From Schmidtea polychroa (Eukaryota): a DNA stretch of 64,000 nt. Every line of letters begins with the position of its first letter. Within the stretch, counting starts at the first letter, position 1. Positions 8,101 through 14,100 of the stretch are shown here, piece by piece. The DNA is taken from assembly GCA_044892525.1 (NCBI GenBank), contig CM097885.1, positions 5,272,001 to 5,336,000 of the forward strand. Reading direction: 5' to 3'. The translations under genes and the position numbers were made by a program. A model generated the notes under the pieces. The model was not told where the DNA came from. It made no database searches and saw only the letters and a program-made list of their open reading frames with translations.

Positions 8101-11100
8101 TTTAATTTAACTTATATAAGTGAATAATTTTTTATTCTCTATCTAATATTAATGATTATTTTCTTTTAGTGAACGGATGCAGTTTATATAAATTTTGTAT
8201 TGCCGAAAGTCATGAAGATGTGGAGAACTGTAAATCAGTTACATCATCATATTTCAAGATAAATGACTCTACCTTATCGGGTTACATATGTCCGGAATGT
8301 CTCATTATATCACCAGGTAGGTGGTTAATGTTTGTACGACAACACGGACACCATCTTAGAAGATTCGAAGAAACGAAGAGCAGGATGATCACTAAAAGTA
8401 ATACTCTTTCTACTATTAACAATTATTAATTTTTTATAGTACAACCGAAAATGAATACATCATACGATCCTAAGCAGATTAAAGAATATGTTACAAGTTA
8501 TGTTATTTAAGTTGTTTAATATTAATTATAAATATAGTTAGACAAAACTCTGGCACCACAAAACGAAAGTCAATATTTTACGGAAATGGAGACTCTAACA
8601 TACAATTGTGTCCACGTCGGGAGTCTGACTTAAATGGTTCTCGTGTTGAATTGACAAGCGATGTATCTGCAATTAATTCTCCTGACATTGTTGTTCCAGA
8701 TTGTCTCATCAGAGAAATAGAAGATCATATTCAACGAATGGGTACAGTAAAAATCCAATTTGGACTTTGTGCAGAGTTTATCAAAGAGGATGGTGAAATT
8801 AAAAAATGGTGTTTGTCGAATAAAGCAATTACAATGTCATCTTCATTTATTAATGATGGAATTGAAAAATTAAAAGAAAAGTTGGAGAAATACACTCAAC
8901 AAAGTAGTGGGTGGAGAATTCATAAAATATTAGAAGTTACTATGATTTTAACTAAATTATCAGACATAATACATGTATCTGGTAAGTTTATTTACATTAT
9001 TATATATATAAATCAAGATATTTACTTAGGTTCAAGTTACATTAAAACGCCAAATTACCTGAAAAACTGCCAGGCTTTAGTTAATGTTCAAAATAATGAT
9101 CAATTCTGCTTTTTATATAGCATACTGGCCGTATTACATTATGATGACATAAAACACCACAGAGAAAGAGTAATGAAATATAATTTAAGTGGTAATATAT
9201 ATTTATATCATTCTAAAAATATATATATTTAGAGTTAAAATGGAAATCAGATTGGTTTCCAATGAAGTTGGTTAACATTTGGCAATTTGAGGCAATGAAT
9301 CCTAATCTAGCGATCAATGTTCTCAAATATAATAAAGATCCAATTAAACAAAAAACTAATGATATTTTCAAGAATCCGTTCGTTGACTTGGTATATAGAA
9401 GTACTTCGACGGGATGTCAATTATATCTCTTATTGATTGAAGAAGGTAATATTTCTTTTAATCATTAAAAATAATAACTAAATTTTAGAATTAAATTATC
9501 ATTTTTTGGCTGTAACTAATCTCGATCGACTGCTCAATTACAGAGATAGAGTAGAAGGAGTCAGAATCCAATCACATTGGTGTCATACGTGTCTTCATGG
9601 GTTTCAAAAACGTCCTGCTTTTGAAAGACATATAGGTCTTTGTAGGAAGAATGTGGAGCGGACGACTCTATACTCAATGCCAGAGAATAAATATATCGAA
9701 TTTAAAGACTGGAGTAAAACTATAAAACAGCAGTTTGTTGTCTACGCGGACTTTGAATCAATATTACCTCTAGATGACAAACACTTCCAAAAACATGAGC
9801 CGATTGCATCTGAATTTGTGCTTCTTCATCAAGGTTGTCCGATTCGAAATGAAACATTTGTTGGGAAAAACTGTATCATTCAGTTTATACAAGCATTGGA
9901 TGATATAGCTACAGACATAGTTTATCCGTGGTATAAAATTAATGGATCGAAGGAAATGATGGAACTCACTTGGGAACAGCAGGAAGAATTTACGAATCAA
10001 ACTCATTGCTACCTTTGGAAAAAGATTATCAATATACCTGTTCGGGATCATGATCATTTTACCGGTCAATATCTCGGAGCAGCGTGTCAAGATTGTAATT
10101 TGGCTAGAAGAATCAATCCGTCTTTACCTGTTGTATTTCATAATCTTCGTGGATATGACATTCATCATATATTAAAATATGCAATTGGAAAATTCCCCGA
10201 TTGGAATTTAATTGTTATTCCTCAATCAACAGAAAAGTTTCTCACACTTACAGCGACATCGAAAGGCAGAAGAATTAGATTCATTGATTCTTTACAATTT
10301 TTAAATAGCAGCTTGGCAAATTTATCAAAAAACTTGCCACGTCTTCCACTTACTTCAAAGATTTTCAATTCGCATTTAATAACTGGTAAAGGCATATTTC
10401 CTTATGATATGGCTACATCAATGGATGTTTTACAGTCAATAACAGAGTTACCACCGATTTGGGAGGGAGTTAGTCAAGAAGATTATATACATGCAAATCG
10501 AATCTGGCGACAATACAACTGTGAGACACTGCTAGATTACATGCTAGTATATCTCAAGTTGGATGTTTTTCTGTTGGCCGATGTTTTTGAAGCTTTCAGA
10601 GAAAAAACATTTGACGAAGATGGACTTGAGGCTCTATCGTTTGTTTCCATACCCGGATTAAGTTGGGCATCAGCTATTAAACAGTTACCTGAACCAGTAG
10701 AACTTATTCAAGATCCAGAGCTTTACCGTTTATTTGAAGCTGGTATTCGTGGTGGAATGACATTTATCAACAAACATCATGTTGAAGCTGATGAATCAAC
10801 ACAAATGTCATACCTAGATGTTAATAATTTATATGGATGGGCGCTGTCGCAAAAACTTCCTGTTGGTGAATTTAGATGGATAAATGATCAGACTGAAATG
10901 AATGGTATTGTTGAAAGATGTGCAAATGGGGATAAGTTTGATGGAGATCTTGGATATGTTCTAGAGGTTGACATCGTCATTCCTGATAGTATACAAGATA
11001 AACTAGATGATTTACCTATAGCTCCTGAGCTTTGTTATCCACCTGGTAGTAAAGTTGAAAAGCTGTTGTTAACTCATGAGCCTAAGAAAAACTATGTAGT

Positions 11101-14100
11101 TAATGGTAGAGTTTTGACAGAGTGGTTGAGTTACGGCGCAAAAGTCACAAAAGTTAATCGTGCTGTAGAATTCAAGCAAGTGGCTATTTTCAAAGGCTAT
11201 ATTGATTACAATACCAAAATGAGAGCAGCTAGTACAGATTCGTTTCAGCGAGATTATTATAAGTTAAAGAACAACAGTTTATACGGTAAAACTGTGGAAA
11301 ACTTGAAGAAACGTATAAATTTGAGATTATGCAGCAAAAGCAAAAGATTGATAACTTATTGTAGTAATCCTATGTTTCGTCGTAGCATCAAGATTGCGGA
11401 TGATCTCATTGCTGTTATACTCAATAAGGAAATTGTGTGTTTAGATAGACCAATGTATATTGGACAAACCGTACTTGATTTATCCAAACTTCGCATGTAC
11501 CAGTTTCAATATAAAGAACTACAGAGTTATAGAGAAGAATTCAATTGTCAAATTAATATCGTAGCCGGTGACACAGATTCCTTCTTTTTAGAGTGTAAAA
11601 ATGTAGATTTACGCTTACAACTATATCCAAAAATGATTGCCGATGGGCTCCTAGATACTTCAAATTATCCAGTGACTGATCCATTGTTCTCAGATAAAAT
11701 TTGTTCGGTAATCGGGAAATTCAAGGATGAGAATAAAGGAAATCAATATAAAGAATGGGTGTTTCTTCGACCCAAGTGCTACTCACTCCAAGGCGATAAA
11801 AACACTCTAAAAGCCAAAGGAATAAGACTTACAAACTCTAATCTTACACATGAAGCCTATAAAAAAGTGTATACTGATGGTGGAACAGTGAGCATCCCAC
11901 AAAAAAGAATAGGAAGTGTCAATCATCAGTTGTATACTTTCATGACAGAAAAACGAGCTCTCCAATGTTTGGACGATAAAAGGTATTGGTACAATTGTAA
12001 TGAAAGTTATGCCTACGGTCACTATAAGATTCGCCAAATGCATATTGCAACTGCTATGTCTAGAAATGAATGCAAATCGAAACAAGCACTTTAACAATTA
12101 AATTTATGTGAATAATAAAATATATATTGTGAATTGTTTGACTTAGTTAATTAAAATGTGTTTTATCATTTAATTATTCATTTGTCCAATTAATTTAGAT
12201 AATTAGTTTCAAGTAAGAAATATTATTTTTGTGTTTATTTTATTTATTTATTTATTTTTTCCGAAATATTAATATCCAGTTTATTTTAAATTAACTCAGC
12301 GTTTTATTTTATAATAAATTAAATAATTTCTAATTAAAATTTATTCAAATTGAATAATTACTAATTAAAATTTTATTCAAATTGAAATATTATCGTTATA
12401 ATTTACCTCTTGTTAGAATATAATGTAAATGTAAAATTAAAAAAAAAAAAAAATAAATAAAAAATAAAAAATAAAATAAAAAATAAAAAAATAATAATAA
12501 TAAATAAAATAATAAAATAATAAAATAATACTAAAATAAAAGCATAATAAAATAATTAATTAAGAAAATTAAAAAGAAAAAAAAAATAAAAAAAAAAAAA
12601 AAATAATAATAATAATAATAATTAAATAGCGTAAGTAATTAAAATAAAATATTAATAAACTAATAAATTAATTAAATGTAATAAATTAAAATAAAACATA
12701 ATAAAATAATTAATTAATAAAATTAAAATGAAAAAAAAAAAAAAAAAAAAAATTAAAAAGAAGTAATTAAATAAAATGTTAATTAAAAAAAAAAAAATGA
12801 TTCGATTGACCTATATTTGATCTGGACATTGGGATGACCTTGAAAGTGTCCTGGAGTCCTTACTATTCACTACTAATGTTTAAAATTTTTAAAAATAATT
12901 AAAAATTTTTATTAAATAAAAGTTTTTATATAATTAATAAATTTGTTTAAATTCCTTAATTTACATAGTTATTATATCCCACCTGATGATGACAGGAAAA
13001 CTGTCGAAATATATCTTAAAAAGAATGTTTGATTGGCGTTATTTTATATTTTGGTTTATTTTTAATTTGTATTTGTCGTTTAAAAATGTTATTTAATTTT
13101 CCATCAAAGTTTTACTTTTTGTTATCAAATTTTGTAATATTTAAAATAAATGAGAAAAACATTGAAAATTAACATTGATAATATTTCGAATTGCACTCTA
13201 AGCTAAAATACAATATTTATAAAATGTTTGTTTATCTACATCAAAATACAAATTATAAATATTGAAATTGTAAACGTCAGAGGAAATAATTAATATAATA
13301 AGTATGATTTATGATTTATGTTGTAAAATGTTGAAATATTTTGATAATTTTGTTAATTTTAGATAAAATGTTTGCAAGCGTATGGGAAATGATGAAGAGA
13401 AATAAATTTGAATTTGATAATGAAATCAGCAATGAATTGATATGCAGAATTTGCAAATGTTTAATGATAAAAGCTTGCCAAGCTCCTTGCGGGTGTCGCT
13501 TTTGTTCTGATTGCATTAAGCATTATTTGGATGGAAAATATAAATTCTGTCCAGGAGCAGCAAAACATTGTGGAAAAAAAAATGATAAATTTCAATAAGG
13601 ATGTTTCTGAAGATCATGCGATCAATCTAAGGATTTCAGAAGTAATAGTGAGTTGCCCAATGCAAAATTGTGAATTCAAAGATGAATTAGAGGTGATGGA
13701 GAGCCACATGAGAACATGCAACAAGCAGCCAATTAGATGCCCATTCAATAGGATTGGATGCGAAATGAATGAAGTAGAGAAGGACGAAATGAAAGTCCAT
13801 CTCAATGAAAACAATGAAGGTCATAGCAAATTACTGATTGATCAGATCAGTAATTTAATCAATGAGATGCAAGCAATGAGAGATGAGAATATCAAATTGC
13901 ATAACGAAATTATCAATATCAATGTAAAATTTTATTTATAATTAATTTAATTGATATTTGTGTTTGGAGGTGAAATTGTGCAATGTTGAAAGGAAAGAGG
14001 CGGAGAACAGAGCAGAAATAGAAGAATTGAATGAGGAAATGGTGACATTGAAGAATGAGAATCGCTCATTGAGAATGGAGATGGAGACAAATATTGGATC

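What the first reader, a model, noticed from the sequence alone, without database searches (positions are those of the whole stretch)
8171..12094. Polinton-type protein-primed DNA polymerase split by five host-style mini-introns, all phase 1
Seen: the separate ORFs 8169, 8606, 9262 and 9506 join into one frame through GT-AG introns of 42, 41, 48, 41 and 43 nt (8398-8439, 8497-8537, 8982-9029, 9192-9232, 9446-9488). All five are phase 1 and lie in the N-terminal third. Three junctions restore conserved pPolB motifs (SG|SSYI, L...FP, E|LNYHF..V..LDRLL). The 2.6-kb exonuclease/polymerase exon has no introns or stops. Known: Polinton/adintovirus pPolB is usually a single ORF, and the region upstream of the exonuclease is the presumed terminal-protein region. 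Inference: either a Polinton lineage that has acquired host-sized introns or a polymerase undergoing domestication. Symmetric phase-1 exons, and the in-frame stop-free 48-nt intron, would allow isoforms differing only in the N-terminal region.
Basis: partly seen in the sequence, partly recalled or inferred. Interest (0 to 1): 0.85.

Follow-up and report, generated by a model that had tools for sequence, protein, structure and literature searches.

The report
Intron-bearing polymerase in palindromic transposon
A virus-like transposon's DNA polymerase gene is cut by five or six tiny host-type introns, and it sits twice, mirror-wise, in a roughly 13-kb element found about a hundred times in this animal genome.

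Summary
The five GT..AG gaps lie at the stated coordinates, all are phase 1, and removing them gives one open frame from 8169 to 12094. The comparative evidence is strong. Uninterrupted relatives of 1,100-1,465 aa bridge junctions 3-5, mostly with one residue per split codon. Across diverged copies the exon lengths never change, while intron lengths vary by non-multiples of three and GT..AG is kept in 34 of 35 cases. dN/dS is 0.16-0.5 in the small exons and in the large one. A sixth intron that splits the start codon is inferred. The exons encode zinc finger, terminal-protein-like domain, OTU-like protease, then exonuclease/polymerase with an endonuclease-VII-like insert. This is the published polinton/adintovirus polymerase layout (PMC11161782). 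Domestication is not supported. The gene lies in each 6.1-kb arm of a 12.4-13.9-kb palindromic element with sharp ends and 6-bp target duplications. The genome holds 217 such ends, and the arms carry no integrase or capsid gene. The window holds only a half copy.

The parts
6283..6773 (.). Remnant of the element's central region, including 27-nt tandem repeats at 6354-6580. Homology to full copies begins here, and the left arm is missing in this window.
6752..7414 (.). 144/145-nt tandem repeats. In full copies these lie on both sides of the centre.
7433..7857 (.). Array of about 31-nt-spaced repeats upstream of the gene.
7954..8043 (+). Two 45-nt direct repeats, each with an ATTGG motif. With the TATA-like ATATATAAG at 8060-8068 they form a promoter-like region. 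This reading is by eye only.
8120..8169 (+). Inferred intron 0 (50 nt, GTGAAT..TTTTAG, phase 1). It would join A at 8119 to TG at 8170-8171 to make the start codon. Not shown by RNA.
8170..8397 (+). Exon 1: N-terminal C..C/H..H zinc-finger-like region. It aligns with residues 1-75 of uninterrupted relatives.
8398..8439 (+). Intron 1, 42 nt, phase 1. It is 41, 42 or 45 nt in other copies.
8440..8496 (+). Exon 2, 57 nt: an 18-aa linker with no detectable homology. It holds an in-frame ATG at 8451.
8497..8537 (+). Intron 2, 41 nt, phase 1.
8538..8981 (+). Exon 3: terminal-protein-like domain D1, with a little-finger/PAD-like fold.
8982..9029 (+). Intron 3, 48 nt, phase 1, in the D1-D2 linker. It is 47 nt in 2 of 7 copies.
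9030..9191 (+). Exon 4: first part of the OTU-like protease. It carries the invariant Cys (motif [13 protein letters not shown]).
9192..9232 (+). Intron 4, 41 nt, phase 1. It ranges from 39 to 82 nt in other copies.
9233..9445 (+). Exon 5: middle of the OTU-like protease.
9446..9488 (+). Intron 5, 43 nt, phase 1. It is 42 nt in 5 of 7 copies.
9489..12094 (+). Exon 6. It holds, in order: the OTU His strand (ELNYHF), a C2HC zinc finger, Exo I, an endonuclease-VII-like insert, Exo II-III, Pol A-C and the stop at 12092-12094.
12095..12849 (.). AT-rich, low-complexity 3' spacer without a credible ORF.
12850..12874 (+). Outer terminus of the element (..TTCACTACT-3'). Homology among all copies stops sharply here.

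Best explanation
The gene. This is one arm of a recently active, multi-copy transposon derived from a polinton/adintovirus. [quoted passage not shown] Splicing gives a protein of about 1,236 aa. Its parts, in order, are a zinc finger, a linker, a terminal-protein-like domain, an OTU-like Cys-His protease, a zinc finger, and an exonuclease/polymerase with an endonuclease-VII-like insert.

The element. Full elements are 12.4-13.9-kb palindromes. Two 6.1-kb inverted arms, each with the whole gene reading outward, meet at a short repeat-rich centre. The element ends sharply and is flanked by 6-bp target duplications.

Inferred mechanism. None of these steps is shown:
- The polymerase primes on its own terminal-protein domain at the identical ends and copies the element.
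- The OTU-like domain frees the terminal protein from the polymerase.
- The palindrome arose, and may be renewed, by fold-back copying of a one-ended, truncated ancestor.
- Integration with a 6-bp duplication is done by a retroviral-type integrase supplied in trans by other elements in the genome.

The window's copy. It has the centre and the right arm only. It alone among 20 copies differs at one zinc-ligand position of the nuclease motif.
For: Introns:
- Coordinates, phases and the open frame are confirmed.
- Exon alignments are colinear and abutting on uninterrupted relatives.
- In 7 compared copies every exon aligns ungapped at full length (76, 18, 147, 53, 70 and 867 aa). The one exception is degraded L036, whose exon 6 aligns in two frames.
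- In the same copies intron lengths are 41/42/45, 41, 47/48, 39-82 and 42/43 nt, and GT..AG is kept in 34 of 35 cases.
- In 20 near-identical copies the only indels that are not multiples of three lie in introns 1 and 4.
- dN/dS is 0.16-0.50 for exons 1-5 and 0.16-0.51 for exon 6.

Start codon:
- No ATG lies in frame between the stop at 8121-8123 and exon 1.
- The codon at 8169-8171 aligns with Met1 of P0010, and relatives begin M-N-x-C.
- An AG acceptor ends at 8169, and the A|GTGAAT candidate donor at 8119/8120 is present in 7 of 7 copies.

Family:
- PF03175 matches at E = 4e-31, and the Exo I-III and Pol A-C motifs are present.
- The N-terminal model has pLDDT 91.9. One domain matches Y-family little-finger domains (Z 8.3-8.0) and the other matches OTU domains (Z 7.1-5.0).
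- The best viral structural matches are adintovirus, MELD, bidna-like and mavirus polymerase proteins.
- This is the TP-vOTU layout of PMC11161782 and the Alpha (OTU + pfam03175) class of PMC8502044.
- Relatives at about 30% identity sit beside rve integrase in 4 of 5 viral contigs examined, and near an A32-like ATPase in 4 of 5.

Element:
- At least 52 copies have an intact large exon, and arm structure was mapped.
- Ends are sharp, and 6-bp duplications flank 3 of 3 pairs.
- There are 106 + 111 terminal 25-mers against 0 in the control. By my hand count, 31 of 43 adjacent minus/plus pairs among the first 100 listed are 12.4-13.9 kb apart.
- Arms of one element differ by 0, 1, 2, 5 and 1 sites per 4.3 kb, against a median of 4.5 between elements.
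- Intact 366-aa rve ORFs exist elsewhere in the genome.
Against: - No RNA evidence of any kind.
- Exon 2 and introns 1-2 have no homology support.
- Intron 0 and the promoter are inferred only.
- No integrase partner with matching ends was found. Most end pairs are the polymerase-only form, so trans-mobilisation is a guess.
- Target duplications were read in only 3 elements.
- Arm homogenisation rests on 5 pairs and small counts.
- The endonuclease-VII hit in the window's protein is below Pfam's cut-off (15.7 against 23.6 bits).
- The two founding Polinton/Maverick papers could not be read. Introns in some described Polintons therefore cannot be excluded.
Confidence: 0.75

Rival explanations
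1. Integrase-free autonomous transposon. The polymerase protein alone moves the element. The terminal-protein domain primes, the polymerase copies, and the endonuclease-VII-like insert makes the staggered target cut that yields the 6-bp duplication. The palindrome is regenerated by fold-back synthesis in every cycle.
For: - The canonical form, about 100 copies, encodes nothing but the polymerase.
- The nuclease insert matches in 29 of 29 relatives scanned at E <= 1.
- Both arms keep intact genes under purifying selection.
- Arms within an element are more alike than arms of different elements.
Against: - 6-bp duplications and AG..CT ends are what retroviral-type integrases of Polintons produce (recalled).
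- Relatives with the same nuclease insert still carry an integrase next door, so the insert is not a replacement for it.
- Intact rve ORFs are present in the genome.
- No joining activity is known for endonuclease VII (recalled).
Confidence: 0.15
2. The gaps are not spliced. The upstream ORFs are decayed remains of the N-terminal region, and only the large exon, if anything, is translated.
For: - No RNA evidence is available.
- GT..AG sets that open a frame are easy to find in this DNA (720 for the neighbouring gene).
- Seven listed relatives start at the Met that matches residue 63 of exon 6.
Against: - Exon lengths are constant, while intervening lengths change frame among copies.
- dN/dS is 0.16-0.5 in exons 1-5.
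- Split codons encode consensus residues, and junctions fall exactly on uninterrupted relatives.
- The catalytic Cys and His of the protease lie in different exons and are both kept.
Confidence: 0.07
3. A single polymerase gene being domesticated by the host, nested in a host intron.
For: The frame is intact, the introns match the host's style, and host genes lie on both sides.
Against: - At least 52 near-identical copies lie on four chromosome-scale contigs.
- There are 217 element ends.
- Target duplications flank the elements.
- This particular copy is a half element, and it carries a private change at a zinc-ligand position.
Confidence: 0.03

Closest known systems
Polinton/Maverick elements and adintoviruses, Alpha PolB class (OTU + pfam03175)
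   Same: - Protein-primed PolB with an N-terminal terminal-protein-like domain and an OTU-like protease (PMC11161782, PMC8502044).
- Terminal inverted repeats and a 6-bp target duplication.
- Relatives at about 30% identity lie next to rve integrase and an A32-like ATPase.
   Different: - The polymerase gene is split by 5-6 spliceosomal-type introns.
- The element has no integrase, capsid, ATPase or adenain-like gene.
- The inverted repeats are 6.1 kb long and contain the whole gene, so the element is nearly a perfect palindrome.
Polinton pPolB2 with nuclease inserts: HNH in nematodes and oomycetes, VSR in marine nematodes and molluscs (PMC10748475; abstract and passages read)
   Same: A nuclease domain is inserted into a polinton polymerase.
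   Different: Here the insert matches Pfam Endonuclease_7 and lies between Exo I and Exo II. That study counted only integrase-linked polymerases, so elements like this one were outside its scope.
[quoted passage not shown]
   Same: A protein-primed replicon that lost one end and exists as a fold-back or palindromic form. This is a precedent for how a one-ended polymerase module could become a palindrome.
   Different: It is a mitochondrial plasmid, not a chromosomal transposon with target duplications. The parallel is inference, and the paper itself was not read.
Bidnavirus PolB segment
   Same: An OTU-bearing PolB of the same class is carried on a short linear replicon with matching ends (PMC8502044 passages). 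Bidna-like polymerases are among the best structural matches.
   Different: It is an ssDNA virus segment packaged with a parvovirus-like capsid, not integrated and not palindromic. Segment size is recalled only.

Membership tests
Polinton/adintovirus-type pPolB | Family-B polymerase of the PF03175 type with Exo I-III and Pol A-C motifs | tested here: met
   PF03175 at E = 4.1e-31. Motifs [40 protein letters not shown] and PKCY are all found.
Polinton/adintovirus-type pPolB | N-terminal terminal-protein-like domain followed by an OTU-like Cys-His protease (PMC11161782) | tested here: met
   The model is of the relative P0010, residues 100-425, with pLDDT 91.9. Domain 1 matches little-finger domains at Z 8.3-8.0 and domain 2 matches OTU domains at Z 7.1-5.0. 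Cys and His are invariant in 56 sequences, and both are present in the window's exons 4 and 6.
Polinton/adintovirus-type pPolB | TPR1 and TPR2 insertions of protein-primed polymerases | not tested
   The polymerase part was not modelled.
Polinton/Maverick element | Retroviral-type (rve) integrase encoded in the element | tested here: not met
   Between 6283 and 12874 the only other ORFs of 90 aa or more are a 92-aa central ORF with no Pfam match and frames antisense to the gene. The same holds in a full copy's centre. Integrase ORFs exist elsewhere in the genome.
Polinton/Maverick element | Double and single jelly-roll capsid proteins, packaging ATPase and adenain/Ulp1-like protease | tested here: not met
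   There are no such ORFs in the arms or the centre. Weak Pox_A32 and Peptidase_C5 matches lie elsewhere in the genome.
Polinton/Maverick element | Terminal inverted repeats and a 6-bp target-site duplication | tested here: met
   Inverted arms of about 6.1 kb. Duplications TATATA, GTAGGT and CTAAGG in 3 of 3 pairs.
Polinton/Maverick element | 5'-AG ... CT-3' ends (criterion recalled from Kapitonov and Jurka 2006, which was not readable here) | tested here: met
   Every arm ends ...CACTACT-3', so the element begins 5'-AG. The criterion itself is from memory.
Spliceosomal (U2-type) intron | GT..AG boundaries kept across copies | tested here: met
   34 of 35 intron copies. The exception lies in a degraded copy.
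Spliceosomal (U2-type) intron | Removal restores colinearity with uninterrupted homologues | tested here: met
   Shown for junctions 3, 4 and 5. Junctions 1 and 2 could not be tested, because exon 2 has no homologue match.
Spliceosomal (U2-type) intron | Spliced RNA observed | not testable with these tools
Endonuclease VII / HNH-like nuclease insert | Pfam PF02945 match with CxxC..DHDH..CxxCN | tested here: inconclusive
   The window's protein scores 15.7 bits against a cut-off of 23.6. 29 of 29 relatives match at E <= 1, with a best E of 7.2e-07. The window's copy lacks the second Cys of the first pair, whereas 19 of 20 copies have it.

The most novel reading that the evidence does not exclude
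A replicase-only, self-synthesizing transposon. In this reading a polinton polymerase has shed integrase and capsid genes, become dependent on host splicing, and propagates as a palindrome. Its two arms are regenerated from one template by fold-back protein-primed synthesis, and its own nuclease insert opens the target. It would be the minimal self-copying DNA transposon of animals.
Probability: 0.15. Interest if true: 0.9.

Novelty: new variant of a known kind. Interest (0 to 1): 0.6.

Why it matters
Two papers describe the core genes of polintons/Mavericks as intronless. One covers intact vertebrate elements (PMC8097293, passages). The other covers nematode elements (bioRxiv 10.1101/2022.07.12.499685, passages). 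In the searchable library I found no account of spliceosomal introns in a polinton polymerase.

A family that needs host splicing for its replicase, and has lost everything else, marks a step from virus towards a pure nuclear transposon.

Its many near-identical copies offer material to test two things. One is the never-demonstrated 'self-synthesizing' mode of transposition. The other is how giant inverted repeats are kept identical.

The all-phase-1 pattern, in six of six introns if intron 0 is real, is unexplained. It may bear on how these introns were gained.

Tried and rejected
- RNA route. The run search listed no RNA holder.
- Search with exon 3 for longer proteins: no hit.
- Earlier findings of this scan: none by place, words or sequence.
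- Pfam on the small exons one by one: nothing.
- Pfam and PDB by sequence for the N-terminal region of relatives: only zinc-finger noise, phi29 polymerase at E 0.08 and an HNH enzyme at E 0.083.
- Foldseek against PDB: no match at E <= 0.001, and the best rows were Y-family polymerases.
- Protein atlas: unnamed eukaryotic clusters only, score 0.86.
For the same reason the loci were not cut.
- The 17.4-kb end pair does not carry extra genes in its centre. Its extra DNA lies further out and was not seen.
- Kapitonov and Jurka 2006 and two reviews are not held.
- No named Polinton reference set was at hand, so no polymerase phylogeny was built.
- Rejected: domestication, because of copy number.
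- Rejected: a conserved in-frame retained-intron isoform, because intron 3 length is not conserved.
- Rejected: frame restoration alone as evidence (control).
- Rejected: non-ATG initiation at the GTG at 8169. It is kept only as a minor alternative to the split start codon.

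
Full report
**Observation**

They are 42, 41, 48, 41 and 43 nt long. Each starts with GT and ends with AG, and each interrupts a codon after its first base. Read from 8169, the six stretches total 3,711 nt with one terminal stop at 12092-12094. 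The last exon is an 870-codon open frame. It matches Pfam DNA_pol_B_2 at E = 4e-31, and it has a weak Endonuclease_7 match.

**Is it more than chance?**

Frame restoration alone is weak evidence here. For the neighbouring TRAF-like gene, 720 different sets of 3-4 GT..AG segments of 25-100 nt open the frame. Three independent comparisons carry the case.

First, homology to uninterrupted relatives.
- The large exon has 2,975 relatives at E <= 0.001 among 8,000 scored candidates. Of the 120 listed, 65 are uninterrupted ORFs of 1,100-1,465 aa.
- At junction 3 the exon alignments leave one residue, the split codon, in 37 of 41 proteins. They do so in 26 of 26 where the alignments reach the exon ends.
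- At junction 5 they leave one residue in 27 of 45, and in 12 of 13 end-reaching alignments.
- At junction 4 they leave one residue in 3 of 44 and three residues in 36 of 44. The window's family and its closest relative P0002 are 2 aa shorter there.
- The split codons encode Gly at junction 3 and Glu at junction 4, the consensus residues.

Second, comparison of diverged copies in the same genome (loci L031-L036; 87-100% amino-acid identity per exon).
- Every exon aligns ungapped at full length, apart from a frame break in exon 6 of degraded L036.
- Intron lengths vary: 41/42/45, 41, 47/48, 39/41/45/48/60/76/82 and 42/43 nt. The exons therefore sit in different relative frames in different copies.
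- GT..AG is kept in 34 of 35 cases. The exception is in degraded L036.
- Among 20 near-identical copies, the only indels that are not multiples of three lie in intron 1 (1 copy) and intron 4 (8 copies).

Third, selection. dN/dS between subfamilies is 0.16-0.50 for exons 1-5 and 0.16-0.51 for exon 6.

Exon 2 (18 aa) has no homologue match, 0 of 65. Introns 1 and 2 therefore rest on copy comparison only.

No RNA was examined.

**A probable sixth intron**

- Exon 1 aligns with the extreme N-terminus of uninterrupted relatives. Residues 1-74 match residues 1-75 of P0010. Eight of the 65 relatives match exon 1. Relatives begin M-N-x-C.
- The window's frame has no ATG between the stop at 8121-8123 and exon 1.
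- The codon that aligns with their Met is preceded by TTTTAG, so TG AAC GGA TGC follows an acceptor.
- The simplest reading is a start codon split A|TG. The candidate donor is TATATAA|GTGAAT at 8119/8120, which is present in 7 of 7 compared copies. That gives a 50-nt intron, again phase 1.
- This is inference. Initiation at the GTG is a minor alternative.

**What the exons encode**

I modelled the N-terminal part of the relative P0010 (residues 100-425) with a 56-sequence alignment. The model has mean pLDDT 91.9.
- Model residues 12-129 correspond to exon 3. They match the little-finger/PAD domains of Y-family polymerases (Z 8.3, 8.2, 8.0; rmsd 2.3-5.9 Å; 90-102 residues aligned).
- Model residues 142-279 correspond to exons 4 and 5 and the start of exon 6. 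They match OTU deubiquitinases (Z 7.1 to 5.0; about twenty of the fifty rows shown).
- The Z values are middling. However, the two domain assignments match the published layout of polinton polymerases: a terminal-protein domain related to Y-family little fingers, then a vOTU protease (PMC11161782; abstract, section 5 and passages of sections 8 and 10 read).
- An Asn, a Cys and a His are invariant in the 56 sequences. The window keeps the Cys in exon 4 and the His in exon 6.
- Among predicted viral structures the best matches are a Drosophila-associated adintovirus 2 protein (E 1.6e-17), a MELD-virus PolB (6e-11), bidna-like polymerases, an adintovirus polymerase (3e-6) and the mavirus polymerase (9e-4).
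- This places the gene in the OTU + pfam03175 'Alpha' class of PMC8502044 (passages read).

Where the introns fall:
- Intron 3 lies in the linker between the two domains.
- Introns 4 and 5 lie inside the protease.
- Introns 1 and 2 flank the linker exon after the N-terminal zinc-finger-like exon.

The large exon carries Exo I-III and Pol A-C. It also carries an endonuclease-VII-like insert between Exo I and Exo II. That insert matches in 29 of 29 relatives scanned at E <= 1. Nuclease inserts in polinton polymerases are known: HNH and VSR (PMC10748475, abstract and passages).

**Relatives**

- Twenty IMG/VR loci encode polymerases about 24-32% identical.
- In the five I examined, the polymerase is directly followed by an rve integrase in four, and an A32-like ATPase is present in four.
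- The contig of P0010 (57% identical) carries an uninterrupted 1,224-codon frame, with a weak adenain-like hit (E 0.074) next to it.
- The lineage is therefore polinton/adintovirus, and its polymerase is normally one ORF.

**What the gene sits in**

- The genome has 781 Mb, four chromosome-scale contigs and low GC. It holds at least 52 copies of the large exon at 100% (rounded) identity with no stops. Many lie in head-to-head pairs.
- Full copies are palindromes. Two arms equivalent to window 6774-12874 lie in inverted orientation. They meet at a centre of about 400 bp or more, flanked by 144-nt repeats.
- All arms end sharply at ...TTCACTACT, which is window position 12874. In 3 of 3 pairs examined the element is flanked by a 6-bp duplication: TATATA, GTAGGT or CTAAGG.
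- The terminal 25-mer occurs 106 times forward and 111 times reverse, against 0 for the reversed control.
- Among the first 100 listed sites I counted 43 adjacent minus/plus pairs by hand. Of these, 31 are 12.4-13.9 kb apart, 8 are 6.7-12.0 kb apart and 4 are 14.8-40.8 kb apart. Fourteen ends are unpaired, including the window's.
- Arms and centre hold no ORF of 90 aa or more with a family match other than the polymerase.
- The window has only the centre and the right arm (6283-12874). Its copy alone among 20 has Trp at the second zinc-ligand position of the nuclease motif.

**How it probably works**

Shown: the gene structure, the domain content, the element anatomy, the copy number, the target duplications and purifying selection.

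Inferred:
- Host transcription from the repeat-rich centre outward, followed by splicing.
- Protein-primed replication from the two identical ends by the element's own terminal-protein-polymerase.
- Release of the terminal protein by the OTU-like domain, as proposed for polintons in PMC11161782.
- Origin of the palindrome by fold-back copying of a truncated, one-ended polinton genome. A hairpin-forming deletion derivative of the kalilo plasmid is a precedent, known to me only from its title in that paper's reference list.
- Possible continuing homogenisation of the arms. They differ by 0, 1, 2, 5 and 1 sites per 4.3 kb within five elements, against a median of 4.5 (range 0-11, n = 40) between elements. 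Over 5.6 kb the figures are 3-4 against 12-21.
- Integration. A 6-bp duplication and AG..CT ends are what polinton integrases give (recalled), and the genome holds intact 366-aa rve ORFs. I therefore favour integration in trans. No partner with matching ends was found, and most end pairs are the polymerase-only form.
- An integrase-free mechanism that uses the nuclease insert remains possible. I give it about 15%.

**Unexplained**

- All five, or six, introns are phase 1.
- One top-scoring rve ORF starts 59 bp outside a plus-strand terminus, at G000:C1:15395486 against the terminus end at 15395427.

**Novelty**

- Intact vertebrate Mavericks are described as intronless, 'in agreement with' the founding paper (PMC8097293, passages).
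- Nematode Maverick core genes are also called intronless, with introns only in cargo genes (bioRxiv 10.1101/2022.07.12.499685, passages).
- Planarian genomes are annotated with DNA/Maverick repeats, without this detail (bioRxiv 10.64898/2025.12.11.693146, passages).
- My searches found no description of spliceosomal introns in a polinton polymerase, nor of a polymerase-only palindromic derivative.
- Kapitonov and Jurka 2006 was not held. Pritham et al. 2007 was not looked up and carries no PMC id in the reference lists I saw. Repbase is not available here. Prior mention therefore cannot be excluded.
- I rate it a new variant of a known kind.

**Verdict**

Domestication and the isoform idea are not supported. 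The more unusual feature is the element itself.

Noticed in passing
window 12883-13051, 5798-5966 and 4418-4551: The 169 nt just outside the element's right end recur in inverted orientation twice upstream (82-84% complementary). The two upstream copies are direct repeats of each other (85%). This is probably a separate dispersed repeat, and its link to the truncation of the left arm is unknown.
   Followed up: no
G000:C1:15395486-15396361 (+), next to the terminus ending at 15395427: An intact rve-integrase-like ORF (382 aa open frame) starts 59 bp outside the plus-strand end of a normal 13.6-kb palindromic copy. It was one of the three best integrase matches in the genome. The DNA could not be fetched.
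   Followed up: partly
window 9491-12091, nuclease motif: The window's copy alone (1 of 20 near-identical copies) has Trp at the second zinc-ligand position of the endonuclease-VII-like motif. Most of the listed relatives that show the motif (76 of 79 found by a loose pattern among the 120) have Cys there.
   Followed up: yes
proteins P0009, P0014, P0057, P0064, P0077, P0088, P0116: Seven listed relatives begin exactly at the Met that matches residue 63 of exon 6. Others begin near the start of exon 5. A gene caller would do this with intron-split genes, so intron-bearing relatives may exist elsewhere.
   Followed up: partly
window 13368-14797 (+): TRAF-like gene with RING, TRAF zinc-finger and MATH domains, about 500 bp from the element's end. 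It has candidate GT..AG introns of 46, 36 and 36 nt with donors at 13924, 14111 and 14249. The exact acceptors are ambiguous.
   Followed up: partly
window 18062-18337 (-) and 42356-42994 (-): Exons of an SLC4-type bicarbonate transporter (HCO3_cotransp and Band_3_cyto). The ORF at 5392-5709 (-) gave no Pfam hit, so whether the element lies in an intron of this gene is not settled.
   Followed up: partly
window 55092-57401 (+): A 770-aa open frame with no Pfam or PDB sequence match. At least 58 copies at 95-98% identity lie across the genome, so it is another abundant repeat family of unknown kind.
   Followed up: partly
window 6595-6873 (-): A 92-aa ORF in the element's centre. A similar 105-aa ORF lies in the centre of another copy (L045). 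It has no Pfam match and may be chance.
   Followed up: no
window 25452-26368 and 28194-29173: Nested inverted repeats, up to 254 nt at 100% complementarity, frame about 2-3.5 kb. This looks like a fold-back or TIR element.
   Followed up: no
window 16300-17960; 35144-35527 (-): A 1.7-kb trinucleotide (TAA/ATT-type) array with GC 0.07, and a short rve-integrase fragment (E 5e-05).
   Followed up: no
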